The position numbers and the translations under genes are program-made. DNA of 64,000 nucleotides from a virus. The stretch lies in IMG/VR virus record IMGVR_UViG_3300045988_079665. The stretch is one strand, 5' to 3'. Shown here in pieces: positions 1 to 31,788 of this stretch (the first letter of the stretch is position 1; every line of letters begins with the position of its first letter). The notes beneath the pieces are model-generated. The model worked only from the letters and a program-made list of their open reading frames with translations, was not told the DNA's origin and made no database searches.

Positions 1-27
1 TATAGCACCATAGCGGCGATTTGTCAA
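1..27 (-). promoter_or_regulatory. sigma-A-type promoter, -10 cut by window edge
   Basis: rc: AAAAATAATAC-TTGACA(22-27)-17 nt-TATA|edge; 21 nt identical to promoter at 2589-2617. Confidence 0.5.
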
Positions 28-428
28 GTATTATTTTTAACTTTCTTAATCATCTCATCATATTTCCCACCAGATAAAACTCGTTCACACTCTTCAATGT
101 TCTGTGTAAAATAGTAAATCGCTGGAATGTTATAGGCTTTACTTTCCCATTTGCGGAGCGATACGCCCTTTTCAACACAATACCAATCAATAGAAATAAT
201 GTTCTGAAATGGATAAGCAGTTTCGCCTACCATAATATATCCCTCATGTTTTATATCGATCATAATCCATTCAGGAATACTACATCTGATTGTATTTGGG
301 TCAATGTAAAATTTATGCCTAAATGAATGCTCATCACCATCTAAGGTCTTAAATGTCGCGCCCCATTTTTCAACAATTACAAAATCAGTTGGCTTGTATT
401 TCTTTTCTCGTTTCTTAAATAATATCAT
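24..428 (-). CDS. hypothetical early protein (134 aa)
   Basis: ORF track; GGTGGTGA RBS; TGA stop lies inside the TTGACA box. Confidence 0.7.
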   Translation of the reverse strand: MILFKKREKKYKPTDFVIVEKWGATFKTLDGDEHSFRHKFYIDPNTIRCSIPEWIMIDIKHEGYIMVGETAYPFQNIISIDWYCVEKGVSLRKWESKAYNIPAIYYFTQNIEECERVLSGGKYDEMIKKVKNNT

Positions 429-455
429 ATATTCACCACCATTCTTTTCCTTTAG

Positions 456-490
456 AAAAATCCCTATAATCTTTCGACCATAGGGATTTT
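456..490 (-). terminator. intrinsic terminator after HU gene
   Basis: AAAATCCCTAT / ATAGGGATTTT stem, 12-nt loop, T-run on minus strand. Confidence 0.7.
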
Positions 491-504
491 AACAGGCGGA
501 TTAT

Positions 505-780
505 TTACTCATTGATTTCCGCCTTCAATGTACTTGTTGGCTTAAATGCCAAAGCATACTTGGCAGGAACTTCAATGGTTTCACCAGTCTGTGGATTACG
601 AGCCGTTCTTGCATCTCTCAGCTTAGTTGTGAACTTGCCAAAGCCATGAATCACAACGTCCTCATGCTGGACTAGACTGCGCTTTACATAATCAATGAAC
701 GTGTCTACGATTTCAGTTGTGTCCTTGACAGTATTTTCTGTGCTATCTGCTACGAACTTAATTAGTTCCTTCTTTGTCAT
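505..780 (-). CDS. hup: HU-family histone-like DNA-binding protein (91 aa)
   Basis: GFGKF...RNPQTGE.IEVPA...AFKP hallmark; aligns along full length with HBsu from memory. Confidence 0.9.
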   Translation of the reverse strand: MTKKELIKFVADSTENTVKDTTEIVDTFIDYVKRSLVQHEDVVIHGFGKFTTKLRDARTARNPQTGETIEVPAKYALAFKPTSTLKAEINE

Positions 781-1319
781 AATTTCCTTTTAATTTCCTT
801 TCGATTTCTAATAAAATTTTATTAAAACAAGTCGCAATGTTCATGCGCATATTGACTTGATATATAGGGTTATTTTGTCGCACTATTAACTACTTACAGG
901 TACTCACTTCACCAAGCCCTATACTATTTGCGCGGAATAGGATTATCACCACACTATAAGCACATTTTCCAGTTTTGCTCTTCGGATGGTACTAGATGAG
1001 ATTCGACCAACAGCCAACCTTAGCAGTGACGCGCGTTATTTACTAAGGATTTTTAGAATTGCCACACTCTCTACAAATTCATGTTAAATTGAATTTACAG
1101 TTGCGCAACCATCTTAAAATCAAGAGTGTGGCGACGTTGCCTCATAGCATCAAGTGGTCAGCTATCAACTATTCAGCAACTAGCATTATAACCTATAAAC
1201 TAGACTATCCGCAGTGACCAAATCTTGAGGACTGTCTTACAAAGCTAGGATTTTCGGCTTTTCCACCAGACGGCTATCAAGTGTGCTTACAATGCTAGTA
1301 GAGGCATGATAGACGTTTT

Positions 1320-1392
1320 TGACCGTGGTAGGATTCGAACCTACATCTCATCCGCTATGAACGGAGAGTATTACCAATTAGGAGACGCGGTC
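1320..1392 (-). tRNA. tRNA-Met/Ile2-like (anticodon CAU), D-stem not base-paired
   Basis: Perfect T-arm GTAGG-TTCGAAT-CCTAC, loop TTCATAG, acceptor GACCGCG/CACGGTC (1 mismatch); A14,G18G19,A21 present but D-stem positions 10-12/23-25 (TCC/TAC) cannot pair (only 13-22 T-A does). Confidence 0.5.
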
Positions 1393-1399
1393 ATATGGA

Positions 1400-1517
1400 A
1401 ATGGGCTTTAAGCGTCAACCCATTAGAAGCATTGGATTCCTATTCAGTTTATTAAGTCGTATGTATCCAACAACCAGTGGACTTTGGTAATGGGCTTTAA
1501 AGATAAACCCATTAGAA
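1400..1517 (-). repeat. two copies of a 29-nt hairpin module (1400-1428, 1489-1517)
   Basis: AATGGGCTTTAAGCGTCAACCCATTAGAA vs AATGGGCTTTAAAGATAAACCCATTAGAA; AATGGG/CCCATT stem. Confidence 0.7.
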
Positions 1518-1831
1518 CTAATCAGCAAGTCTACACTCTAACCTAGTCCTAAGACTGCTAGAACCTCTCCACATTTTTGTATGCCTCGCCTCGACTTACT
1601 GATTGCAACTATAATTAGTATCCCTTAGTTGCCTAGGGGCCAATCCCTGCTTAATCCGTCTGGTTCTCGTTATCGACATGATTGACTGCATATGCCTTTA
1701 TGCTGTTAAGCAATTTAATTTCCTCTCACCAGCTCGATTTGCATTTGATAACGAAGTGCTTATGACCAATTCTCTTCTCCGTATTAGTAGTCTATAAACC
1801 AGCCACTATATATCGTTTCAAGTGGACTTAA

Positions 1832-1910
1832 TGGTGCGGGATAGGAAAGTCAAATCCCTACGCCTTACGGATTTTGAATCCGCTCCCTCTGCCGATTGGG
1901 GTACCGAGCC
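1832..1910 (-). tRNA. tRNA-Leu(CAA)-like element with non-complementary acceptor (pseudo-tRNA or tRNA-like module)
   Basis: 5' two-thirds canonical (GGCTCGG TA CCC-CAATCGGCAGA-GGG A GCGGA-TTCAAAA-TCCGT); T-loop TTTGACT; 3' strand ATCCCGC-ACCA does not pair with 5' strand. Confidence 0.35.
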
Positions 1911-2588
1911 ATATTTATCTTAAGCCGACTTTCTACCTCATAGCTATTTCTAGCATCGGCTCGTGAATGATGTTTACATATGATGTGCTATCACGCCAAA
2001 AAATCCATGTTGCTAAGGCATATCCCAACACACAACATAATGCTTAGCAAGACAAATTTGTGTGCCAGTAGTCGCTAACTACTCTTGGGAACAAGTGAAT
2101 ATCGAACTACCATTTCTGGACGGTGCGACCGATTTATTCTTGTGCAAAGCACTATGTTCATTCACTGTTAGTGACTCGCGATCAGGCTTCCTCTGATTTA
2201 ACTGTCACCATTGCCACGATTTACTCCTTAGACGATGGCTGCCTCTAAGCCAACATTTCATATGTATGTAATATCCTTATATCACCTTTGCCGTTATGTT
2301 TTTGCCCTCATGCTAACGGAACACGCTCAGGCGCGACCCCAATTCTCTATAAGCTATCTGCCGCTTCTCAAACTCTGCACAGACCTGCTTCACAGGCGTG
2401 ATATAGATTTGACGGTTATCTTCAAATCCGGTCGGATATTATAAACGATGGCTGTTCATCTCACTCCATTTACTACTGCTCCTGTGTTCCAAAGATTCTA
2501 TATTGCTATTCATTATCGGCTTTGCCGTCCTGTCTTACCGGGCGCTCATAATCTTTAGCTTCGTAGCACCATCATCTTTACATTCTCA

Positions 2589-2617
2589 ATTATAGCATAC
2601 TTGATTTCATTTGTCAA
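2589..2617 (-). promoter_or_regulatory. consensus sigma-A promoter
   Basis: rc TTGACA-aatgaaatcaagtatgc-TATAAT, 17-nt spacer, TGc extended -10. Confidence 0.75.
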
Positions 2618-2760
2618 GTATTATTTTTGAAATTATTATTTATTTTTTCTAAGATTTCTTCCATTTGCACATTGGCTTTAGTCCAATGATATACGACTAT
2701 CAGCATCCCAACTGCAACACCAACCGCAAATGAACCTAAACAAGCTAACAGAATAATCAT
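2614..2760 (-). CDS. small membrane protein (48 aa), tentative
   Basis: ATG..TGA ORF below track cutoff; hydrophobic N-terminus MIILLACLGSFAVGVAVGMLIVV; weak RBS. Confidence 0.35.
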   Translation of the reverse strand: MIILLACLGSFAVGVAVGMLIVVYHWTKANVQMEEILEKINNNFKNNT

Positions 2761-2822
2761 ACACTAATAATCAATAAATTTTCCCAAACTCTTTACCCTA
2801 CAAACTTACCTTACCTAATTAA

Positions 2823-3062
2823 CTAATCCTGTTTTTCTTCATTATTAGTCAATGATTTCTTTGCTAGACGAGCTGATTTGAGCCGTTCTGCCGCAGCTTG
2901 CTTCTGTTCATCGGTCATCTCTCTTTTTCTAAATGGATTGTTGCCTAGGCGAAACGGATATAAATTGCAATCGTGGATAGTACAATTCTTTACTTCATAA
3001 GCCGAGCCACAGCTACATTCTAAGCAGTGCTGACGGATGACTTTTAGTGGAGATTTTTCCAT
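2823..3062 (-). CDS. Cys-rich small protein (79 aa), putative zinc-binding
   Basis: ORF track; CLECSC...C....C motif; basic C-terminus. Confidence 0.7.
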   Translation of the reverse strand: MEKSPLKVIRQHCLECSCGSAYEVKNCTIHDCNLYPFRLGNNPFRKREMTDEQKQAAAERLKSARLAKKSLTNNEEKQD

Positions 3063-3280
3063 ATTATCACCTCATTGATAATTGGTTCCGTTTATTATTA
3101 TCTAATGCCTTATAAACGGTTTCCTTAAAATTTGGCCCCTACTTTATACACTCATAGGTGAATTGTGGTCAGTTAACGATTGATTTCTGAACGAATTGAT
3201 TTTTGGCTCATACAATCATAACCCGCAATTTCAACTGTTTGTTTAAGTGTTAACTGAAATTGCTTTAACTGCGATCACTT

Positions 3281-3373
3281 TGGTACTGGCGCTCGGACTC
3301 GAACCGAGATTTTGCGGCAATCGACCGCTAAACTGTGTATAGGACAGCTGGCTTACCATTAACCGACACCAGC
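3281..3373 (-). tRNA. 93-nt class-II (long variable arm) tRNA with anticodon loop CCUAUAC (UAU), CCA encoded
   Basis: Acceptor GCTGGTG/CGCCAGT, D-arm GGTT-AATGGTA-AGCC, T-arm CTCGG-TTCGAGT-CCGAG, 23-nt variable region with GCGG/CCGC stem. Confidence 0.6.
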
Positions 3374-3471
3374 ATATTTGAGCCTTTTATCGTCATGCTC
3401 AGGACTATATTTTAGGAGGTTCACAATGAAGAACTGTAATTGAGATTACCCAATCTCTCAACCACATCTGT

Positions 3472-3500
3472 ATTATATCATATGAGTTGCTGTTTGTCAA
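3472..3500 (-). promoter_or_regulatory. consensus sigma-A promoter upstream of tRNA 3281-3373
   Basis: rc TTGACA-aacagcaactcatatga-TATAAT. Confidence 0.75.
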
Positions 3501-3510
3501 GAATTATTTT

Positions 3511-3714
3511 TTATAGTTCTTGAAACATCTTTTCCCATTTTTCCATCCACAACATAACTGGAGTTGTATCGCCTGTTCTATAAGTTTCATATGCGATAGC
3601 ACCACGCACGAATGTCATAATACTAGACTTTGTAACAAGACCGGTTGGGTCTGGCAATTCTGTTTTACCAGTTTCATATTGCTTCATGATAAAATCTGTA
3701 AGTTTCTCATCCAT
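3511..3714 (-). CDS. hypothetical early protein (67 aa from ATG 3714)
   Basis: ORF track 3511..3747; first ATG at 3714. Confidence 0.6.
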   Translation of the reverse strand: MDEKLTDFIMKQYETGKTELPDPTGLVTKSSIMTFVRGAIAYETYRTGDTTPVMLWMEKWEKMFQEL

Positions 3715-3741
3715 TATATCACACCAACTTTCATTTGTCAA
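3713..3741 (-). promoter_or_regulatory. consensus promoter motif overlapping a gene junction
   Basis: rc TTGACA-aatgaaagttggtgtga-TATAAT; -35 holds upstream TGA stop, -10 overlaps ATG 3714. Confidence 0.5.
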
Positions 3742-3893
3742 GAACAAATTTTATTCATTTCAATAAATTTTTCACAAGCCCATCCATTTAGAACTGGTAC
3801 TTCATCACAGTTGTAACCCCACAATCCAGTTTCACGGTCATAGCAATCTACATGACAAAGATAATCACCGATTTTGAAATAGGTATTAAGCAT
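3738..3893 (-). CDS. small Cys-containing protein (51 aa), tentative
   Basis: ATG 3 nt after stop of 3897..4109; MLNTYFKIGDYLCHVDCYDRETGLWGYNCDE...; below track cutoff. Confidence 0.45.
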   Translation of the reverse strand: MLNTYFKIGDYLCHVDCYDRETGLWGYNCDEVPVLNGWACEKFIEMNKICS

Positions 3894-3896
3894 ACG

Positions 3897-4109
3897 TTAA
3901 TCCTCTACATAATATGTTTCACATACATCTTGTACATCATCTCTGTTCGATTTAATATCTAATGTTGCATATGTTGGATTTGCGCCTTCATATACAATTT
4001 TTAGTTTGCAGTCAATCCCAAGATTTTTCATCACAGACTGAATCTTCTGAAATGCCTTACCAAGCAATTCTTCCCTGAGCTGATATTCTTCCAATGTTTT
4101 CGCTACCAT
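3897..4109 (-). CDS. hypothetical early protein (70 aa)
   Basis: ORF track; co-directional tight packing. Confidence 0.7.
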   Translation of the reverse strand: MVAKTLEEYQLREELLGKAFQKIQSVMKNLGIDCKLKIVYEGANPTYATLDIKSNRDDVQDVCETYYVED

Positions 4110-4521: not shown

Positions 4522-4943
4522 GCATCTTTGATAAATTTATTTTCAATAGCAACCCACTTTTTAATCTGGTCATCTACTCGCACCCATTTGCCATAACAAT
4601 TCAGGTCTGGGTCAAAATACCAGAGTCCATAATAGTTTAGATGCGCCTCGTTGGTAATATTGCTGAATGGATTATCATAACCAATCCAACCAAACAAACC
4701 CGTAACAAACTTTACATCAGAATCATTACCTACTGTAAATACCGCCAAATCGCCTAGTTCATCATGAACAGCCTGCACATTAAATTTGATTTCTGTCCCA
4801 TCTTCTCTATAAAATCCAAGACAACTTCCTTCGCGCTTCTTTACATCTTCATACTGACACACATACTCATGGCAATGCGCCTCATACTCATCATCAAATT
4901 CTGCGCCGCAATATTCACATTTATAAATCGTTGTTTCAATCAT
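4518..4943 (-). CDS. hypothetical protein with C2H2-like motif (141 aa)
   Basis: ORF track; YKCEYCGAEFDDEYEAHCHEYVC. Confidence 0.75.
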   Translation of the reverse strand: MIETTIYKCEYCGAEFDDEYEAHCHEYVCQYEDVKKREGSCLGFYREDGTEIKFNVQAVHDELGDLAVFTVGNDSDVKFVTGLFGWIGYDNPFSNITNEAHLNYYGLWYFDPDLNCYGKWVRVDDQIKKWVAIENKFIKDA

Positions 4944-5515
4944 TTGAACAATTCCTCCATTTCTCTAGTATTGTATTTTCTATTCTTCACATATTCAACT
5001 CGACTTTTGAATTTGCCCCAATCTGCACTACGGATATTATCGTCAATCAATTCACGAATAAAAATCTCATCCTTATATTTGCGCCGTTCGAGCCGTAAAT
5101 CATGTAGCAACTTATATATCTTATATCCATCTCTTGCATTGTATGAATTGAACTCAATAGCATGAAGCACATCTTGAATTTTATTCTCTACTTCTTGCAG
5201 TTTATATTCGACCCATGTCGCCCTTGCTACAAGCTGGTCATGCAGGTCACAGAACGCGCCAATTTGCGCCAATGCTAAATCATAATTGACCAAATTTGAA
5301 TTGTTAAACTGGTCGAAATCGACGGGTTTAGATGGTGCATCAATCTGTTGCACAAAATATCCAAGATTGCGCATTTGCTTTGGTAAATTAACAAGCGCAT
5401 TATCGGCTTTGGTTTTATCATTGAATTGAAATGACTCGCTTAATTCAGTTGTTGGAATCCATTGCCCTATGGCATTATGCATGAGATAGTATTTATTGTT
5501 ATAGAGTACATACAT
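4940..5515 (-). CDS. hypothetical early protein (191 aa)
   Basis: ORF track; 4-nt overlap with downstream gene. Confidence 0.8.
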   Translation of the reverse strand: MYVLYNNKYYLMHNAIGQWIPTTELSESFQFNDKTKADNALVNLPKQMRNLGYFVQQIDAPSKPVDFDQFNNSNLVNYDLALAQIGAFCDLHDQLVARATWVEYKLQEVENKIQDVLHAIEFNSYNARDGYKIYKLLHDLRLERRKYKDEIFIRELIDDNIRSADWGKFKSRVEYVKNRKYNTREMEELFK

Positions 5516-8074: not shown

Positions 8075-8103
8075 TATATATCACATTTAATTCTATTTGT
8101 CAA
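8075..8103 (-). promoter_or_regulatory. sigma-A promoter (-10 TATATA)
   Basis: rc TTGACA-aatagaattaaatgtga-TATATA. Confidence 0.6.
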
Positions 8104-8109
8104 GTACAA

Positions 8110-8193
8110 TTTTCAATTTTCATTTTCTGAATAGGAATATTGATTTTCAATTTCTAACTTGTTTTTCATTTTCGAAAATCATTTTTCATTTTC
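8110..8193. repeat. five phased copies of TTTTCA(A/T)TTT(C/T)
   Basis: Starts 8110, 8117, 8144, 8163, 8183; last three about 20 bp apart; directly upstream of promoter 8075-8103. Confidence 0.7.
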
Positions 8194-8426
8194 TAGCCCG
8201 TACATACATAGATATTTATATACATATCTATCTGCACATACATTTACATATTCATATGCAGATTCATCTGCATCATCATGCATATAAATGATGTAGATAG
8301 ATGTATTTATAGATAATACGTGGCTTTGTGTCTATAAATATAAACGCCACATTTACTTTCATGCACATATCGGCAAACATATTAGCACCAAAGTCAATGT
8401 CATTCACATTTTTCATATGAATATAT

Positions 8427-8438
8427 GTGAATATTCAC
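8427..8438. repeat. 12-bp perfect palindrome GTGAATATTCAC
   Basis: Read directly. Confidence 0.8.
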
Positions 8439-8719
8439 ACATTTTCCCAACAAGTTTATGTATTGATTTGCCGCTTTTTCTATTTAGACATATAGATATA
8501 TACTATTATCATCAGTCTATTACATGCACACATTATTTTGTATAGATATAATGCTTGATTGTCAACTATGGCAGAATCGCCGCAATTAGCTGTATTGCAC
8601 CATCTGCGTCTCACTATGCCAATTTCAACGCAATCTCATATACATACTAGACTCGGCGCAAAAGTCCGTTGTACGTCATCAGAGCCGCACCGCCACGATT
8701 ATATGTAGGCATATATTAC

Positions 8720-8906
8720 TGGGGAAAATCTGCATAGCTTAAGCCGCACACACACATGAGAAAAATCTAGTCGATTTTTTCGCGCCGAGCCAGTGTATGT
8801 ACTGTATATAGTTGGGGAAAATGTAAAAAATTGTAAGGTCACATATACGCGAGGATTTTTTGCATCGATTTATTGCTTCATTTGAATAAAGTGTATCTGG
8901 GAAAAT
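8720..8906 (+). repeat. three direct copies of T(G)GGGAAAAT (8720-8729, 8813-8822, 8898-8906)
   Basis: Read directly; inverted copies at 8441-8449 and 13106-13115. Confidence 0.6.
8837..8877 (+). repeat. left copy of imperfect ~45-bp direct repeat
   Basis: GGTCACATATACGCGAGGATTTTTTGCATCGATTT vs 12781-12827 GGTAACACGTACGCGAGTATCTAATTTTTTGCAATCGATTT. Confidence 0.5.
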
Positions 8907-9139
8907 ATGATAATTGGAAACCACTGGCAATTTAGTTAAATGTCTCTAACTCATGGCCGACTTTCCCCTCCTCATAGGTGCTTCCCTAGGTCACTTTAAT
9001 TATAGCAGATCGTGTGCCATATGTCAACAAAAAAATTTGTACAAAAATAAGCCACCCATTTTAGGCACATTGTACAATGCTCTTCTGGCGGCTTTGGCGG
9101 CTTTATACGGCGCGAACTATGCTAGAGCTATAGAAAACA

Positions 9140-12154: not shown

Positions 12155-12576
12155 TCTTTTTATAATGTTTTTTTGTATATTTTAATATATGGTTATTATA
12201 TATATTATATGTATATGCGATCAATTTACTACAATGTTATTGTAAGGCCACTGGAGCCGTTTTAAGTAGTTTTCAGGTCGAGCCGTGTTTTTATATGCCT
12301 GATCTTTTTATTCCGTTATACAGTTTTTATACAGTTTGATTATTCATTGTTTTGATAGTAAATAGCTATGATATACACTTAGAAAGTTAGAATATACTAG
12401 AATTACATAGATTATTGTATAGATATGATATGCATATACTACATATTTATTCATTTATTGCTTATTGGTACAGTGTCTTAATAGTTATATAGATATAATT
12501 ATATCGATATTGATTATTGTATATTTTTATCGATATATTATATCGGTATAATTATCTATATAATGTACTGATTATA

Positions 12577-12598
12577 ATAGTTACAATATTGTAACTAT
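12577..12598. repeat. 22-bp perfect palindrome ATAGTTACAATATTGTAACTAT
   Basis: Read directly. Confidence 0.9.
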
Positions 12599-12780
12599 GT
12601 ATTACAAAGTAGTAACAGTATTTAAATATCGATATAATAGTATTGAATATGGTATCTTGTGTGGTATATTAGATGTTATTGTATGTTATAGTAGTTGGTA
12701 TGATATAGATAATGGGGTAAATGATAGTAAATAGGGTTTATTGCATGGAGTAAATATGGTTTACCAAAAAGCGTGTATCA

Positions 12781-12827
12781 GGTAACACGTACGCGAGTAT
12801 CTAATTTTTTGCAATCGATTTTGACAA
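12781..12827 (+). repeat. right copy of imperfect ~45-bp direct repeat
   Basis: See 8837-8877. Confidence 0.5.
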
Positions 12828-12872
12828 CAGAAATTTTAGACTATTCTAAAAATCCGGAAAAATCAGTCTATA

Positions 12873-12895
12873 ATAATAGGAATCATTCCTATTAT
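12873..12895. repeat. 11-bp inverted repeat ATAATAGGAAT-c-ATTCCTATTAT
   Basis: Read directly. Confidence 0.85.
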
Positions 12896-13158
12896 AGCCC
12901 GATACGCCGGCAAAGTGCTATTTTCAGGCGTTTTTTAAGATGGTAGCATTTTCCAGTACGGGGGCTAGGATATGGATGGGAATGGTAGAAATGGAAGAAA
13001 TTGGCATTTAGCACAACAAGCTACATACCATGTAATCACATCATAAATTCATATAACCCACGCATCACTATTTAGCAACAATTCACACAACCCGTAACAG
13101 ATATTATTTTCCCCATCATAATAATTTACAATTTGTTAACAAATAGATGATTAGAATA

Positions 13159-13167
13159 TGGTATAAT
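13159..13167 (+). promoter_or_regulatory. extended -10 promoter TGgTATAAT
   Basis: No well-spaced -35 (TTAACA lies 20 nt upstream). Confidence 0.45.
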
Positions 13168-13200
13168 TAGATGATGATAAAAAAGTTGTACAATCGCTGA

Positions 13201-13232
13201 TACTAATATAATACGTTAGTATTATTATAGTG
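13201..13232 (+). promoter_or_regulatory. leader inverted repeat sharing the core AATACGTTAGTATT with 19424-19451
   Basis: 7 bp + 2 mismatches + 5 bp stem (last pair G-U), loop GTTA. Confidence 0.5.
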
Positions 13233-27300: not shown

Positions 27301-28125
27301 ATGTTTTGCCCATATTGCGGCAAGGAAAAGCAAGACAGCCAATTCTATAAAAGCCCAATCAAAACGGGCGAATATATTAAGCCATGCAAATCATGCGTAA
27401 CTGAGATATATAAACAAGCTCTTGAATCTACTAAAGACCAAGGCGCGGCATTATGGTCAACTTGTATGCAGACTGGCATTCCCATGAGACGTGCTGAATA
27501 TACGGCTTGTCTTGATACGCTAGAAAAGGCGGCTAAAGGTAAAAAGCCTAGTCTATTTATGTTGTATCATACATACTTATCAACATCTCCTGATAAATTA
27601 ACAGGCGTATGGGATAGCGATATGGAGTTGTCTAATTTCAAGGATTTGGGCGATGTAGCTAAGGGTGAAACAGATGAAGTTGCGCTTAAAGCAAGATGGC
27701 GCAAACAATGGGGCGGTGACTATGAAGATGAGGACTGTCAATGGCTAGATGATATGTTCGATAGCTATACGGCAGATATATTTGAAATGGATACCGCTAT
27801 GGAAATGCGTTATCGTGATCTGTGTAAGCTAGAACTTGAACAGTATAAAAATGGTGTTAATAAAGACACTCAAGCACAGATCAAAACGTTAATGTCACTA
27901 CTTAAACTTGATGATTTTAAGAGTAATCAGAAGTCGGACGCGGAACGAGCATTTGAGAAACGTATAGCTTGGGTGGAATATACTAAACCATCTGAATGTG
28001 AAGATTTGACAAGATTCGTAGATATGGTTGGATATGAAAAGGACAAGGGTGAAAAGATGCGTAGCTTGCGCAACGCTGTTGCTGGCACTAGAGATTATCC
28101 AGCAATCCCGAAGGAGGAAGCATAA
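27301..28125 (+). CDS. putative terminase small subunit (position-based), N-terminal zinc ribbon
   Basis: Immediately upstream of and overlapping terL; CPYCG...C..C. Confidence 0.35.
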   Translation: MFCPYCGKEKQDSQFYKSPIKTGEYIKPCKSCVTEIYKQALESTKDQGAALWSTCMQTGIPMRRAEYTACLDTLEKAAKGKKPSLFMLYHTYLSTSPDKLTGVWDSDMELSNFKDLGDVAKGETDEVALKARWRKQWGGDYEDEDCQWLDDMFDSYTADIFEMDTAMEMRYRDLCKLELEQYKNGVNKDTQAQIKTLMSLLKLDDFKSNQKSDAERAFEKRIAWVEYTKPSECEDLTRFVDMVGYEKDKGEKMRSLRNAVAGTRDYPAIPKEEA

Positions 28126-29969
28126 TGCGCTCTAGGATGGGCGGTCTTAGAGAATCATTTAAGGCTGATAAACTTCGCGCCGTATCTGGCATATCTAAAA
28201 AAATAGATAGTGCCTTAGAAGATAACATCATAGAGTGGACAACTCTATTCAGACGAAATTGGGATATATTTGCTGAATTTTATCTAGGGATTCCATTAAA
28301 ACCATATCAGCGTCAGGCATTACATGAAATTGGTGTATCAGATGTGTACTTTTGGAGAGCAGGACGTGGCGGCGCAAAATCGTTTATTACTATGCTTGCG
28401 GCGGTCTGCAAGCTACTATTGTATCCAAACTGTCAGATAGTTATTACATCCTCTACTGTTGACCAAGCTAATAAGATGGTCAAAGAAAAGCTAGAGAAAG
28501 AATTGATAAAAAAGTTATCTCAACTACTTTTGCTTTATTATGAAAAAGACTGGATAAAAATAACAAAGCCGAACGATGGATATTATGTAGAGTGTACACT
28601 TAACAATTCGTCCATTACTGTTCTTGCCCCTGTTGAATCAGCTAGAGGTTCGCGTTCTAACTTTACCATATATGATGAGGTTGCCATTATGAAGAAAACG
28701 GCAATAGACCAAATCTTTGATGGGATGTTGTTTCCAAGGCAACCAAATTATTTAAGCAATCCTGCATATTCTGGAAACAAGAGATGGATAGAAGAATCTA
28801 AGAGTATATATCTAACATCATCTAAGTTCAAGTTCCAGTGGTGGTATAGATTGTGGTGCGATTGTGTAACAGGATATTATGTTGATAAGCGTACTAAATA
28901 TGGCATATTCGCAACTGACTTTTTTGATAATATAGAAAATGGCTTAAAAACATGGGGTGATTATCGTAGAGCTAAAAGGCAGAACGACGATATATCATTT
29001 AGGACAGAATACTTAAATGAAGCGATTGGCGAGTCAGAGGATTCTTTCTTTAGTCTTGAATCATTTAAGGAAAATCAAGTTATTACAGATGCGTTTTGCC
29101 CACCAAAACCGATGGATTTATTGGTTGCTAGTGAATTAGAAGATGACGAGAAAAAAGACGATGAAGTGCGCCTCATTGTATCTGACTTTGCTTGGACAAC
29201 AACTGGCAAAAAAGCAAACGAATCGGATAATAGCATTGCTATATGTATAAGAGCAAAGTGGAAAAAAGACCATTTTGATAAATATGTAGAATATATTGAA
29301 CTGCTACCAACGGCAGATGACGCAGATGGTTGTGCTGATAGGTTAAAAGAATTGTTTTGGTTGTATCAAGCAGACTATTTAGTGCCTGATGCTAGATCGG
29401 GTGGCGAAGCGGTTATGATAGCTTTATCTAAACCATATACCAATGAACGTTATTCGGCGTTCATCAATAATCATGGCCTAACTATGGCTGATAAAAAAGA
29501 ATATCATGTGGCTCGACCCGATAAGCTAGATTACTATAGAGCCAATGCAGTAGACCCAAATGCTTATCCTTGTATCATACCTATTGTTGGTAGTGAAACG
29601 CTCAATACGTCTTATTGGAAAGCAACTAAAATGTCACTTGAGAATAATCGTATAAAATTCTTGATAGGGATGAGCGATAAGCAAGATGTTATTGTTGAAA
29701 CTGGCGAATATTACAAATACACCGGCGAACAGATAGCAGATATACTTGCGCCTCATGGCAATACTGATTTGCTTATATCGGAGGCAGTTAATTTAACCAC
29801 CATATTCAAAGGCGAAAACATTAAACTGGAAGCGCCGAGAACAGGGCATCGTGACCGTATTGTTACATTAGCTATGGGTATTTTAATATGTGATTATATT
29901 GAAAATGAATGGAATAGACAGAATCATGCTGAAGAATATGATTTAGATGACATTCAATTAGTATATTGA
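28125..29969 (+). CDS. terL: terminase large subunit
   Basis: Walker A-like GRGGAKS, Walker B IYDEVA, C-terminal nuclease-like acidic motifs. Confidence 0.85.
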   Translation: MRSRMGGLRESFKADKLRAVSGISKKIDSALEDNIIEWTTLFRRNWDIFAEFYLGIPLKPYQRQALHEIGVSDVYFWRAGRGGAKSFITMLAAVCKLLLYPNCQIVITSSTVDQANKMVKEKLEKELIKKLSQLLLLYYEKDWIKITKPNDGYYVECTLNNSSITVLAPVESARGSRSNFTIYDEVAIMKKTAIDQIFDGMLFPRQPNYLSNPAYSGNKRWIEESKSIYLTSSKFKFQWWYRLWCDCVTGYYVDKRTKYGIFATDFFDNIENGLKTWGDYRRAKRQNDDISFRTEYLNEAIGESEDSFFSLESFKENQVITDAFCPPKPMDLLVASELEDDEKKDDEVRLIVSDFAWTTTGKKANESDNSIAICIRAKWKKDHFDKYVEYIELLPTADDADGCADRLKELFWLYQADYLVPDARSGGEAVMIALSKPYTNERYSAFINNHGLTMADKKEYHVARPDKLDYYRANAVDPNAYPCIIPIVGSETLNTSYWKATKMSLENNRIKFLIGMSDKQDVIVETGEYYKYTGEQIADILAPHGNTDLLISEAVNLTTIFKGENIKLEAPRTGHRDRIVTLAMGILICDYIENEWNRQNHAEEYDLDDIQLVY

Positions 29970-30213
29970 TATTTGCCTATGAAGCGGCTACTATGTTGGT
30001 GTGTGGCTGTGGAGGTGCTATTAGGGTTGTGTGGTGAATATACTCCAAGTTCCAACTTAGGCTTAATTGAAAGCTGAAAATAAAAACACTCAAAAATATC
30101 AAACGAGCGGATAGGGAGGACAAGTAGCTCAATGAACTTTGGCATACGTTAATGAAGTCCATAATCTAACCGCTCTAATATATAAACAATAAAACAAAGA
30201 AAGGAGGTTGAAG

Positions 30214-31788
30214 ATGCCAAAAAATAATGAAGATGTAAAGCTATCTAAAAATGACCTTCAAGACATTATTGATTTTAGTGCTGGCTTGATGGCGGTTGAT
30301 AATTTTTATTCACCATTTTTGAGCAATCAGCTATTGACCAATCTAAACAATAATCCACGCTTACCTAATGCAGAGGCGGTAAAAAAGGCGCTCAATGACT
30401 ACAAGAATAGTGGCGCTGATTTACAGGGGTTTGTAGAATTTGCATCAGCGTTTGATATGATTTTCAAGCGTACTTTATATTCTTATGCAAATGTGCTATC
30501 TTTCGACCTTCAGATAACCTGCAAAAACGCATATACAAAAGGCGACTATGAATCAGAGGAATATAAGAAAGACCGGCAAACAGTAGATAATTTCTTGACT
30601 AATTTTGACTACAAGAAAGAATTTTATAATGTTCTGCTAAACGTCCTAAAGCGTGACTCATATTTTACTTGGTTCAGAAAGACTAAGAGCGGCAATCGCG
30701 GCAAGATGAAGTATGCTCTACAAATTATGCCACAAGATTATTGTATGCTTACTGGATACTTTGAAAAAGGGTTGCTGTGGTCTTTTAATGTACTGTATTT
30801 TATGCAACCGGGCGTAGATATTGAGGGGTTTGACCCAAGTCTTAAAAAGACATATCTTGATGCGATTGAAAATGCGGAGCTAAATTATAAGCCGTCTGCA
30901 CCACTCGATAAACGTAATGGTAGTTATGCACTATGGGCAGATGTATCACCGCTTAATGGTGCTTATGCTTGGAAATTTTCCACAGACAACTTTGCTAACA
31001 ATCCATTCTTAGCACCATATGTAGCCAATGTTCTACGCAGTGATGAGGTTGGTGAGTTGCAATATAACAAAGACCTTATCTCTGCGGCTGGTATTTTAGC
31101 TGGTGAAATTAGACTATTTGATTCAGCCAAGTCAGGCACGAAGGCGAATCAATTTGCTATTGACCCGAAAACGCTTGGAGCATTTATGCAAAAGGCGGCT
31201 AATGGACTCAAGAATATTGCTAAACTGGCCGCTATGCCACTTGAGAATATCAAGTTTTTCCAATTTGAGGACAAGAACCCAAATAGCTATACAAATGAAC
31301 TAACTACAACAGCTGGTATTGGTACTGGTATTAGCCGTGTTATCTATTCATCTGATAAGATGAGCAATGCTGAGCTAGAGGCGGCGCTTAATGAGGTATA
31401 TCAGACTATGAAGCCAATGTATGCTCAGTTCAATAATTTCCTTGATTTCTATGTCAATCAAATGACTAGCAAATATAAGTTTAAGTTTGAGTTTGTTGGC
31501 TCTAACTATCAATTTGAGCGTGATGCCAGATTTGATAAGATGATGAAAATGGCTGATAAGGGACTTGTGCTCAATTCGTCCGCATGGGCTAGTGCTATTG
31601 GCATGAATCCTATTACATTCGATAGGATGCTTGCTGAGAGCAAATATACTGGATGGATTGACAAGTATTCAACGCTTATGTTAAATGCAAATACCACAGC
31701 GCAATCAAATGAAGGTGGCCGCCCCCGTCAGTCAGGAACATCACTTACTGAAAGCGGAGAGGCAAGCCGAGAAACATTAGAGGAATGA
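30214..31788 (+). CDS. portal protein (position- and size-based)
   Basis: 524 aa directly after terL; AAAGGAGGT RBS. Confidence 0.6.
   Translation: MPKNNEDVKLSKNDLQDIIDFSAGLMAVDNFYSPFLSNQLLTNLNNNPRLPNAEAVKKALNDYKNSGADLQGFVEFASAFDMIFKRTLYSYANVLSFDLQITCKNAYTKGDYESEEYKKDRQTVDNFLTNFDYKKEFYNVLLNVLKRDSYFTWFRKTKSGNRGKMKYALQIMPQDYCMLTGYFEKGLLWSFNVLYFMQPGVDIEGFDPSLKKTYLDAIENAELNYKPSAPLDKRNGSYALWADVSPLNGAYAWKFSTDNFANNPFLAPYVANVLRSDEVGELQYNKDLISAAGILAGEIRLFDSAKSGTKANQFAIDPKTLGAFMQKAANGLKNIAKLAAMPLENIKFFQFEDKNPNSYTNELTTTAGIGTGISRVIYSSDKMSNAELEAALNEVYQTMKPMYAQFNNFLDFYVNQMTSKYKFKFEFVGSNYQFERDARFDKMMKMADKGLVLNSSAWASAIGMNPITFDRMLAESKYTGWIDKYSTLMLNANTTAQSNEGGRPRQSGTSLTESGEASRETLEE

What the first reader, a model, noticed from the sequence alone, without database searches (positions are those of the whole stretch)
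781..2588. 1.8 kb promoter-driven, ORF-free locus: large structured RNA(s) punctuated by tRNA-like elements
A perfect TTGACA-17-TATAAT promoter (2589-2617, minus strand) fires into 1.8 kb (2582 down to 781). This stretch has no ORF of 60 aa or more on the transcribed strand. By eye it is more G+C-rich than the flanking coding DNA. It is packed with helices, for example GCCACACTCT 1061-1070 / AGAGTGTGGC 1123-1132 and TTGCTAAGGCAT 2010-2021 / ATGCTTAGCAA 2040-2050. Two tRNA-like elements (1320-1392 and 1832-1910) cut it into blocks of roughly 670, 440 and 540 nt. The giant ornate RNAs GOLLD and ROOL are known from phage or prophage DNA next to tRNA genes. This locus may therefore be a member of one of those classes or an undescribed relative. 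The tRNA-like modules could serve as RNase P/Z punctuation that releases the blocks.
Basis: partly seen in the sequence, partly recalled or inferred. Interest (0 to 1): 0.75.

Follow-up and report, generated by a model that had tools for sequence, protein, structure and literature searches.

The report
Phage tRNA and small-RNA island
This 1.8-kb protein-free stretch of an uncultured phage is an early-transcribed island holding a tRNA, a dead hybrid tRNA, two tRNA-end-like hairpins and several conserved folded RNAs of unknown role; it is a patchwork of separate cassettes, not one giant RNA of the GOLLD/ROOL type.

Summary
A perfect, conserved TTGACA-17-TATAAT promoter (2617-2589, minus strand) faces 1.8 kb with no ORF on either strand, even if any one stop codon is reassigned. 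G+C is raised and no terminator precedes the HU gene (505-780). The GOLLD/ROOL interpretation fails: Rfam at E<=10 returns only two weak tRNA matches. About 30 related uncultured phage contigs show a mosaic of independent cassettes, present or absent from 0 to 2.2 kb. The core cassettes are B (2269-2443), D (1911-1980) and F1b (1134-1263). C, E, the tRNAs, F2 and F3 are optional. B+D, F1b and C show compensatory base-pair changes above controls, and all modules are far more conserved than silent sites of the adjacent HU gene. Element 1320-1393 is a borderline tRNA-Met(CAU). Element 1832-1910 is a unique recombinant of two different tRNA(CAA) genes with a broken acceptor stem. Two hairpins ending in NCCA sit where relatives have tRNA 3' ends. 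Two relatives carry the curated RAGATH-33 motif in the island. Best reading: a phage tRNA and stable-RNA operon, comparable to the T4 tRNA region with RNAC and RNAD, made of previously undescribed RNA motifs. Function is unknown. Interest is moderate.

The parts
2589..2617 (-). Island promoter: TTGACA-17-TATAAT with a TG-extended -10
   Evidence: Scores 12/12. The same promoter, TTGACAAATaAAATCAAGTATGGTATAAT, heads the island in relatives.
2558..2588 (-). A0: conserved start of the transcript (5' leader)
   Evidence: 95-100% identical in most relatives.
2439..2513 (-). Remnant (24 codons plus stop) of a 71-aa ORF seen in L048/L053, fused by a deletion to the start of module B
   Evidence: tblastn gives 75% identity over 24 aa, E 4e-9. 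The ORFs are listed.
2269..2443 (-). Module B: a 175-nt multi-branched structured RNA closed by the helix AUAAUAUCC/GGAUAUUAU. Its loops are invariant and its stems covary.
   Evidence: Alignments A1 and A5. Fifteen of 61 pairs (B+D) carry double changes, against 3.6+-1.7 in shuffles and 1-4 in slid controls. It is present in most relatives. A covariance model finds no other copy.
1981..2268 (-).
   Evidence: Found only in L048, L053, L054 and L148. There are 10 and 13 compensatory pairs against 3.8+-2.1 and 4.8+-2.3 expected (8/1000 and 3/1000 permutations).
1911..1980 (-). Module D: a conserved bulged hairpin with an inner GCUA-GAAA-UAGC hairpin. In most relatives it lies directly 5' of the first tRNA slot; in L055 and L068 a hairpin element follows it instead.
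   Evidence: Helices 9 and 10 of alignment A1, with covariation in L060. Present in nearly all relatives.
1832..1910 (-). Chimeric pseudo-tRNA(CAA). The 5' part comes from a short-arm tRNA(CAA) type and the 3' part from a long-arm tRNA-Leu(CAA) type. It ends in an encoded ACCA.
   Evidence: The 5' part matches type 2 at 45/46 and the 3' part matches type 3 at 35/37. There are two acceptor-stem mismatches. It scores 20.4 bits against 56.6 and about 50 bits for the parental types. ARAGORN does not call it. No relative has both halves.
1518..1831 (-). Module E: a 314-nt optional cassette. It includes a 12-bp helix (about 1599-1588 with 1536-1525) carrying two compensatory changes.
   Evidence: Found only in L053, L064 and L066, at 91-92% identity. 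The covariation test is borderline: 5 pairs against 1.1-3.0 expected.
1485..1517 (-). H1: a hairpin plus ACCA (minihelix-like), sitting where relatives have the 3' end of a tRNA
   Evidence: Direct repeat D3, the alignment, and the junction ACCA|AAGTCCAC shared with real tRNAs.
1429..1484 (-). S: a conserved spacer between the tRNA slot and H2
   Evidence: 89-100% identical in 7 relatives.
1394..1428 (-). H2: a hairpin plus UCCA, 3 nt upstream of the tRNA-Met
   Evidence: 97-100% identical in relatives. A second variant (GGUAGG/CCUACU in place of AAUGGG/CCCAUU) keeps the stem through double changes and keeps the loop UUGAnnCnUAAAG and the NCCA tail.
1320..1393 (-). tRNA-Met(CAU)-like gene. The T arm is canonical, the D stem is unpaired, there is one acceptor mismatch, and no CCA is encoded.
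   Evidence: ARAGORN calls it. Rfam gives 28.7 bits against a threshold of 29. The same allele occurs in 8 relatives at 94-100% identity.
1134..1319 (-). Modules F1a (1264-1319, optional) and F1b (1134-1263, core): structured RNA
   Evidence: Alignment A3 of 20 sequences. 40 double-change cells against 19.7+-2.8 in shuffles and 0-9 in slid controls; 96.6% of cells paired.
1055..1133 (-).
   Evidence: Alignments.
863..1054 (-). Module F3: optional cassettes with little comparative data
   Evidence: 91-97% identical in L060 and L149, partial elsewhere.
781..862 (-). L: the conserved 5' untranslated region of the HU gene. It is also present in relatives that lack the island.
505..780 (-). HU-type DNA-binding protein gene. 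It is the first coding gene downstream, with no terminator in between.
   Evidence: Pfam Bac_DNA_binding, E 3.5e-30. No terminator-like site in 1-4000.

Best explanation
The region is an accessory, early-expressed tRNA and stable-RNA island of an uncultured Clostridia-type tailed phage. One strong sigma-70-type promoter (2617-2589) is inferred to drive a single precursor on the minus strand, and that precursor runs on into the HU gene.

The precursor strings together self-contained cassettes:
- structured RNAs B, C, D, E, F1 and F2;
- one tRNA-Met-like gene;
- one dead recombinant tRNA(CAA);
- two hairpins that end in NCCA.

The tRNA-type elements and the NCCA hairpins are inferred to be cut by host RNase P at their 5' sides, with 3' trimming back to the CCA. 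This would release the intervening RNAs as discrete species.

The cassettes are shuffled between related phages by recombination at shared junctions and inside the tRNA genes. What the non-tRNA RNAs do biochemically is not known. The most likely class is trans-acting accessory RNAs that act on host factors early in infection.

Shown: the anatomy, the non-coding nature, the modularity, RNA-level selection, and the chimeric tRNA. Inferred: co-transcription, processing, and any function.
For: Promoter and read-through
- The promoter is perfect and conserved.
- No terminator-like site occurs in 1-4000, and internal promoter-like sites are no more frequent than chance.

Non-coding nature
- There is no ORF, no recoded ORF and no conserved small ORF.
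- Variable columns show no 3-nt periodicity.
- Indels of 1, 4 and 6 nt occur inside module B.

Modularity
- About 30 relatives carry from 0 to 2.2 kb between the same flanks.
- Cassettes are independently present or absent, with sharp common breakpoints.

Selection on RNA structure
- B+D: 15 pairs with double changes against 3.6+-1.7 in shuffles.
- F1b: 40 double-change cells against 19.7+-2.8.
- C: 10-13 compensatory pairs against 3.8-4.8 expected.
- The HU coding control is not significant.
- Invariant G-U pairs fit only the minus-strand RNA.
- Modules are 85-98% identical where 4-fold sites of HU are 45-86% identical.

tRNA context
- Relatives hold bona fide tRNAs (Leu-CAA, Met, Ile/Val/Thr) in the same slots.
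- All are preceded by ATAT, and the tRNA(CAA) genes are followed by (TT)AAGTCCAC in most relatives.
- The NCCA hairpins occupy tRNA 3'-end positions and covary.

Other support
- A curated structured RNA, RAGATH-33 (139.9 bits), sits in the island in two relatives.
- The precedent is the T4 tRNA region, which also encodes two small RNAs of unknown role, RNAC and RNAD (PMC3014915).
Against: - There are no expression data, so the transcript, its ends and its processing are all inferred.
- Folding energies of the blocks are not better than shuffled sequence.
- Covariation in B and F1b rests largely on one divergent sub-clade, and in C on two lineages.
- E, F3 and the leader have little or no support and could be debris.
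- High identity could partly reflect recent lateral exchange rather than constraint.
- Both tRNA-type elements in this window score below the Rfam threshold, so they may be poor RNase P substrates.
- Some relatives lack the island entirely (L051, L052, L061), so it is dispensable.
Confidence: 0.62

Rival explanations
1. The locus encodes one giant ornate RNA of about 1.8 kb, a GOLLD/ROOL member or an undescribed relative. The tRNA-like elements would lie in internal linkers, and the domains would fold cooperatively.
For: - It lies in a phage tRNA island, is driven by a promoter, and is large.
- GOLLD sometimes carries tRNAs in its linker (PMC12286853, read).
Against: - No GOLLD, ROOL, HEARO, OLE or raiA match appears even at E<=10 with permissive filters.
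- Relatives keep some modules and lack others in many combinations: B without C, F1b without B or D, or a tRNA alone.
- Module B closes on itself, and C is inserted exactly after B's closing helix.
- No helix linking different modules was detected.
Confidence: 0.04
2. Apart from the tRNA genes, the region is mostly non-functional debris. It would consist of decayed genes, tRNA fragments and recombination scars accumulated in a hot spot driven by homing endonucleases.
For: - The window holds a truncated ORF remnant and a dead chimeric tRNA.
- HNH endonuclease genes occur in or next to the island in relatives.
- Many cassettes are optional.
- Folding z-scores are unremarkable.
- The covariation test for E is borderline.
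Against: - B, D, F1b, F2, C and the NCCA hairpins keep their base pairs through compensatory changes above controls.
- Loops of B are invariant across variants that are only 70% identical overall.
- Modules are much more conserved than silent sites of the neighbouring gene.
- No similarity to the HNH or other ORFs of relatives was found.
Confidence: 0.15
3. The region is a long structured 5' leader that controls the stability or translation of the downstream HU mRNA, acting in cis.
For: - No terminator lies between the promoter and HU.
- The order of the core cassettes relative to HU is fixed.
Against: - Relatives express the same HU gene, with the same 82-nt leader, and no island at all (L051, L052, L061) or only a tRNA (L050, L062).
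- The island brings its own promoter.
- tRNA genes inside a leader imply cleavage away from the mRNA.
Confidence: 0.08
4. The region is a cis-acting DNA element, such as a replication origin or packaging site, rather than a set of RNA genes.
For: - The stretch is ORF-free and differs in composition from its flanks.
Against: - There are no iterons or repeat arrays; only one 33-nt hairpin repeat was found.
- The region is absent from some relatives.
- Strand-specific G-U pairs and compensatory changes indicate selection on an RNA.
Confidence: 0.02

Closest known systems
Phage T4 tRNA region with the small RNAs RNAC and RNAD
   Same: - It is a phage tRNA gene cluster that also encodes small non-tRNA RNAs whose roles are unknown (PMC3014915).
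- It is a variable region that also harbours homing endonuclease genes in T4-type phages (my own knowledge).
- Relatives of this window carry HNH genes in or next to the island.
   Different: - No sequence relationship was tested or is expected.
- Non-tRNA RNA dominates here: about 1.5 kb against at most one working tRNA.
- There are at least five separate structured modules.
- Hairpin-NCCA elements are present.
- The host is probably a Firmicute rather than an enterobacterium.
- Processing and stability are not shown here.
GOLLD and ROOL large ornate RNAs
   Same: - They are encoded in phages and prophages, often next to tRNA islands.
- GOLLD can carry tRNAs in its linker.
- Their function is unknown (PMC12286853; PMC5737381).
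   Different: - No match to either Rfam model was found at E<=10.
- GOLLD and ROOL are single RNAs of about 580 to more than 800 nt with a fixed conserved architecture.
- This locus is instead a set of independently present or absent cassettes of 33-314 nt.
RAGATH-33 and other orphan structured RNA motifs from comparative genomics (Weinberg et al. 2017)
   Same: - They are conserved, covarying phage-associated RNA motifs without known function.
- RAGATH-33 itself sits in the island in relatives L064 and L066.
   Different: - The window has no RAGATH-33 copy.
- Modules B, C, D and F match no Rfam family.
- With the tools used here, they were found only in this phage clade.
tRNA punctuation of polycistronic transcripts, with minihelix substrates of RNase P
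   Same: - tRNA-shaped elements separate other RNAs in a single transcription unit.
- A hairpin with a 3' NCCA resembles the acceptor/T-arm minihelices that bacterial RNase P cleaves in vitro (my own knowledge; not tested here).
   Different: - The hairpin stems are about 8 bp rather than 12 bp, and the loop is not a T-loop.
- No cleavage data exist.
- The chimeric tRNA has a mismatched acceptor stem.
Phage tRNA genes that offset codon bias or tRNA-cleaving host defences
   Same: - The tRNAs in the island slots read UUG, AUG/AUA, GUA and ACA codons, which the phage uses often.
- Several non-homologous alleles with the same anticodon swap at one slot. This pattern is compatible with an arms race (PMC10264068, PMC11555353).
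   Different: - In this window the CAA tRNA is broken and the Met tRNA is borderline.
- tRNA supply therefore cannot explain the 1.5 kb of non-tRNA RNA.
- No defence system or host is known.

Membership tests
GOLLD RNA | Match to the Rfam covariance model, in particular the universally conserved 3' region | tested here: not met
   cmscan of 500-3600 on both strands at E<=10 with permissive filters gave no GOLLD match. The gathering-threshold scan of the whole window gave none either.
GOLLD RNA | A single RNA of more than 800 nt whose architecture is conserved among members | tested here: not met
   Relatives show independent presence or absence of modules.
ROOL RNA | Match to the Rfam covariance model (a multi-pseudoknot fold of about 580 nt) | tested here: not met
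   No match at E<=10.
HEARO, OLE, raiA, group I and group II introns | Match to the respective Rfam models | tested here: not met
   No match at E<=10.
tRNA (element 1320-1393) | Cloverleaf recognised by tRNA finders and scoring at or above the Rfam gathering threshold | tested here: inconclusive
   ARAGORN calls it tRNA-Met(CAT). Rfam gives 28.7 bits against a threshold of 29, with an unpaired D stem and one acceptor mismatch. The allele is conserved in 8 relatives.
tRNA (element 1832-1910) | Paired acceptor stem, canonical T loop and a score above threshold | tested here: not met
   It scores 20.4 bits and ARAGORN does not call it. There are two acceptor mismatches because the 5' and 3' halves come from different tRNA types. 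There are also C-to-U changes in the T arm.
Phage tRNA-cluster small stable RNAs (T4 RNAC/RNAD kind) | Non-tRNA RNA genes located inside a phage tRNA gene cluster | tested here: met
   Structured, covarying modules lie between tRNA slots.
Phage tRNA-cluster small stable RNAs (T4 RNAC/RNAD kind) | Co-transcription with the tRNAs and processing to discrete stable species | not testable with these tools
   Only a single promoter and the absence of terminators can be shown.
RAGATH-33 RNA | Match to the Rfam model at or above 120.4 bits | tested here: not met
   The window has no match. Relatives L064 and L066 match at 139.9 bits within the island.
Recoded or hidden protein-coding gene | A long open frame under a single stop reassignment, or protein-like 3-nt periodic conservation | tested here: not met
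   The longest open stretch is 116 codons or fewer under any single reassignment. Variable columns are evenly spread over the three phases. The candidate small ORF is broken in relatives.

The most novel reading that the evidence does not exclude
The island may be a cassette array of several previously undescribed classes of phage accessory RNA. Module B has invariant loops and junctions around covarying stems, as riboswitch aptamers and ribozymes do. It could therefore be a new RNA with a sophisticated biochemical function, such as binding or mimicking a host factor. The hairpin-NCCA elements could be dedicated tRNA-end mimics that recruit RNase P and the CCA-adding enzyme to cut out and cap the cassettes. 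Cassette turnover, together with the swapping of unrelated tRNA alleles that share an anticodon, would then reflect an arms race with host defences that target tRNAs or other RNAs.
Probability: 0.2. Interest if true: 0.7.

Novelty: new member of a known kind. Interest (0 to 1): 0.4.

Why it matters
Phage tRNA islands are known to carry unexplained RNAs: T4 RNAC and RNAD, GOLLD and ROOL. This locus adds several new covariation-supported RNA motifs (B, C, D, F1b, F2 and a hairpin-NCCA element). They are expressed from a very strong early promoter in an uncultured phage clade distantly related, by its terminase, to phages of gut Clostridia.

The natural presence/absence series among about 30 relatives is a ready-made deletion set for asking what such RNAs do. 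The chimeric tRNA shows directly that tRNA genes act as recombination points that reshuffle these islands.

None of this overturns current ideas. Its value is as a well-delimited set of candidate RNAs and as a cautionary example: a long ORF-free stretch next to tRNAs need not be one giant RNA.

Tried and rejected
- **Known RNA families.** I ran Rfam at gathering thresholds on the whole window and at E<=10 on 500-3600. Only tRNA-type matches appeared in the region.
- **GenBank phages.** DNA searches with megablast and blastn found no match. The phage is only distantly related, at 39% TerL identity, to Enterocloster phages. The 79-aa neighbouring protein gave no useful synteny.
- **Recoded ORF.** Rejected.
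- **Conserved micro-ORFs.** Rejected.
- **Remnants of HNH or other ORFs of relatives.** Only the 24-codon remnant at 2513-2439 was found.
- **Thermodynamic stability as evidence of structure.** Not significant.
- **Wider distribution of the modules.**
  - A 17-mer from B in viral contigs gave the same clade plus five chance matches with no further similarity.
  - Motifs from B and F1b gave 0 hits in 185,579 bacterial and archaeal genomes.
  - The F1b motif in viral contigs gave the same clade only.
  - A metagenome scan with HU added only six close relatives.
  - A covariance model of B found nothing credible in 881 kb of other loci.
- **Second copies inside the window.** None.
- **First alignment of the F region.** I guessed the coordinates of two sequences wrongly, which blurred the result. 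F1b was realigned properly.
- **T4 genome review.** The paper is not held in the library. The statement about T4 comes from PMC3014915 instead.
- **RAGATH-33.** No text about it could be found.
Full report
**1. What is in the sequence**

The window is a tailed-phage genome fragment. It holds a large terminase at 28125-29969 and an HU-type protein at 505-780. Its terminase is 39% identical to those of Enterocloster bolteae phages of about 100 kb.

On the minus strand there are three perfect TTGACA-17-TATAAT promoters with a TG-extended -10, at 3741, 3500 and 2617. No terminator-like site occurs anywhere in 1-4000.

Downstream of the promoter at 2617-2589 lie 1.8 kb with no ORF of 60 aa or more on the transcribed strand. 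The longest ORF on the other strand is 69 aa. All three stop codons are frequent in all six frames, and reassigning any one stop opens at most 116 codons. The small minus-strand ORFs lack ribosome-binding sites. The best one, 31 aa at 1691-1596, carries an in-frame stop in relatives.

G+C is 0.40-0.46 inside the region and 0.30-0.38 outside.

**2. Known RNA families**

Rfam at gathering thresholds finds nothing in the region. At E<=10 with permissive filters it finds only two sub-threshold tRNA matches: 1320-1392 at 28.7 bits and 1835-1909 at 20.4 bits, against a threshold of 29. ARAGORN calls 1319-1393 tRNA-Met(CAT) and does not call the second element.

There is no match to GOLLD, ROOL, HEARO, OLE, raiA or the group I/II introns. 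Membership in those classes was tested and is not met.

**3. Relatives**

GenBank phages hold nothing similar at the DNA level. The flanking 79-aa gene and the HU gene retrieved 25 related IMG/VR contigs of 47-101 kb. A metagenome scan added six more relatives.

Between the same flanks these relatives carry from nothing to about 2.2 kb. The window aligns to them in blocks with sharp, recurring breakpoints.

A presence/absence table shows a core and a set of optional cassettes.
- Core: the promoter, a 31-nt transcript start (A0), module B (2269-2443), module D (1911-1980), module F1b (1134-1263) and the 82-nt HU leader.
- Optional: C (1981-2268; 4 of the 27 tabulated relatives, so 5 genomes counting the window), E (1518-1831; 3 relatives), the tRNAs, the S/H2 unit, F1a, F2 and F3.

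Some relatives have only a tRNA between promoter and HU (L050, L062). Some have F1b without B or D (L069). Some have no island at all (L051, L052, L061).

This rules out a single cooperative 1.8-kb fold. Module B closes on itself through the helix AUAAUAUCC/GGAUAUUAU, and cassette C is inserted exactly behind that helix.

**4. The tRNA-type elements**

In relatives, the slot of the window's element 1832-1910 holds real tRNAs with anticodon CAA, or UAA in one case. They come in three unrelated forms:
- type 1, an 85-nt form with a long variable arm;
- type 2, a 77-nt form with a short arm, scoring 56.6 bits;
- type 3, an 84-nt form with a long arm, scoring about 50 bits.

The window's element is a hybrid. 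Its first 46 nt match type 2 at 45/46. Its last 37 nt match type 3 at 35/37. The crossover lies in the shared CCGTAAR.

Because the two ends come from different tRNAs, the acceptor stem has two mismatches. The T arm has also acquired two C-to-U changes, one of them in the T loop. No relative has this combination. I regard it as a recent recombinant pseudo-tRNA.

It is direct evidence that recombination within tRNA genes reshuffles the island. HNH-type homing endonuclease genes lie in or beside the island in L047 and L051/52, which may promote such exchange. That last link is an inference.

The tRNA-Met-like gene (1320-1393) has a canonical T arm and a CAU anticodon. Its D stem is unpaired and it has a C-A mismatch in the acceptor stem. 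The same allele is kept at 94-100% identity in eight relatives.

**5. Hairpins ending in NCCA**

A 33-nt repeat occupies 1485-1517 and 1396-1428. Each copy is a hairpin of about 8 bp followed by ACCA or UCCA.

In relatives, the position of H1 is taken by the T arm, acceptor strand and ACCA of a real tRNA, followed by the same downstream junction AAGTCCAC. H2 is 97-100% conserved and usually lies 3 nt before the next tRNA.

A second variant replaces the stem AAUGGG/CCCAUU with GGUAGG/CCUACU. That is two double changes. The variant keeps the loop UUGAnnCnUAAAG and the NCCA tail.

These elements look like acceptor-end mimics. It is established that bacterial RNase P can cleave minihelices with a 3' CCA (my own knowledge). 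Whether it cleaves these hairpins is not tested.

**6. Are the non-tRNA modules RNAs under selection?**

- **B+D.** Alignment A1 holds 13 distinct sequences. RNAalifold predicts 61 pairs, of which 15 carry changes on both sides. Shuffles give 3.6+-1.7 and slid-partner controls give 1-4. 98% of cells are paired.
- **Strand.** Several pairs are invariant G-U. This fits only the minus-strand RNA and agrees with the promoter.
- **B in detail.** With 18 sequences (A5), the loops and junctions of B are invariant between variants that are only 70% identical overall and that differ by indels of 1, 4 and 6 nt.
- **F1b.** Alignment A3 holds 20 sequences. There are 40 double-change cells against 19.7+-2.8 in shuffles and 0-9 in slid controls.
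- **F2.** Its nested hairpin is replaced in four of the twelve aligned sequences by a different sequence that still pairs.
- **C.** Only two lineages exist, so I wrote a pairwise test. It gives 10 and 13 compensatory pairs in shared helices of 5 bp or more, against 3.8+-2.1 and 4.8+-2.3 after relocating the substitutions (8/1000 and 3/1000 permutations).
- **E.** The result is borderline: 5 pairs against 1.1-3.0 expected, depending on the minimum stem length.
- **Control.** The HU coding sequence is not significant in the same test.
- **Neutral yardstick.** Four-fold degenerate sites of HU are 45-86% identical between the window and its relatives. The modules are 85-98% identical to the same relatives.
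- **Caveat.** Minimum free energies of the blocks are not better than shuffled sequence, with z-scores of -0.5 to -1.65.

In short, the evidence for structure is comparative, not thermodynamic. It is good for B, D, F1b and F2, fair for C, and weak for E, F3 and the leader.

**7. Other contents**

The leader contains a 24-codon remnant (2513-2439) of a 71-aa ORF present in L048 and L053. A deletion has fused it to the first bases of B.

In L064 and L066 the stretch between the promoter and B holds RAGATH-33, a curated Rfam motif, at 139.9 bits against a threshold of 120.4. The island therefore accepts structured-RNA cassettes of independent origin.

**8. Distribution**

B and F1b motifs occur only in this clade among 2.9 million viral contigs. 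They do not occur at all in one genome from each of 185,579 bacterial and archaeal species. A covariance model of B finds only the window's copy in 881 kb of other loci. There is no second copy in the window.

**9. Interpretation**

The best-supported reading is a phage tRNA and stable-RNA operon. A strong early promoter drives a precursor in which tRNA-type elements and NCCA hairpins separate self-contained structured RNAs, and transcription then continues into HU.

This is the same kind of locus as the T4 tRNA region. [quoted passage not shown] It shares its genomic setting with GOLLD and ROOL (PMC12286853; PMC5737381) without being a member of either.

The tRNAs of the clade read UUG, AUA, GUA and ACA, all of which the phage uses often. 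Unrelated alleles with the same anticodon alternate at fixed slots. This is compatible with codon supply or with evasion of tRNA-cleaving defences (PMC10264068, PMC11555353). In this window, however, the tRNA content is nearly spent, and most of the island is non-tRNA RNA of unknown function.

Co-transcription, processing and any trans-acting role are inferences.

**10. Verdict**

I rate the novelty as a new member of a known kind, namely a phage tRNA island with orphan structured RNAs. It contains several motifs that match no Rfam family and that the literature searches made here did not turn up. Interest is moderate at 0.4.

Noticed in passing
window 29974-30094 (+): A drum RNA (Rfam RF02958, 45 bits against a threshold of 43) lies 5 nt after the stop codon of the large terminase gene and before the next large ORF (30208-31788).
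   Followed up: no
window 3281-3373 (-), and the same slot in L045-L069: A 93-nt tRNA with anticodon UAU has an extra arm of about 20 nt in the variable region and an unusual CCUAUAC anticodon loop. It is driven by its own perfect promoter at 3500. Relatives hold many unrelated tRNA(UAU) alleles of 76-95 nt at the same slot, several with a long variable arm, which is not expected for an isoleucine tRNA.
   Followed up: partly
L064 4123-4235 and L066 4120-4232: The curated motif RAGATH-33 (139.9 bits) sits between the island promoter and module B in two relatives. The window has no copy.
   Followed up: partly
L047 (about 4660-5217) and L051/L052 (about 4835-5383): HNH-type homing endonuclease ORFs of 185 and 182 aa are inserted in or next to the island in relatives. 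The window has no remnant of them.
   Followed up: partly
Slot of window 1832-1910 in L046-L066: Three unrelated tRNA genes with anticodon CAA alternate at one slot: an 85-nt form, a 77-nt form with a short variable arm, and an 84-nt form. One relative (L054) has UAA instead. All encode the CCA end.
   Followed up: partly
window 3741-3713, 3500-3472, 2617-2589 and about 40-22 (-): A family of near-identical perfect promoters with a shared upstream A/T tract (AAAAATAATACTTGACAAA) is repeated along the early region. The copy at the window start is cut off by the window edge.
   Followed up: partly
window 8085-8952 and 12225-13229: Two further stretches have no ORF of 70 aa or more. The second lies at the point where gene orientation switches from the minus to the plus strand. 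Rfam found nothing in either.
   Followed up: no
window 3063-3280 (-): About 220 nt of non-coding sequence lie between the tRNA(UAU) and the 79-aa zinc-ribbon-like gene. This stretch is 92-93% conserved in L055 and L063.
   Followed up: no
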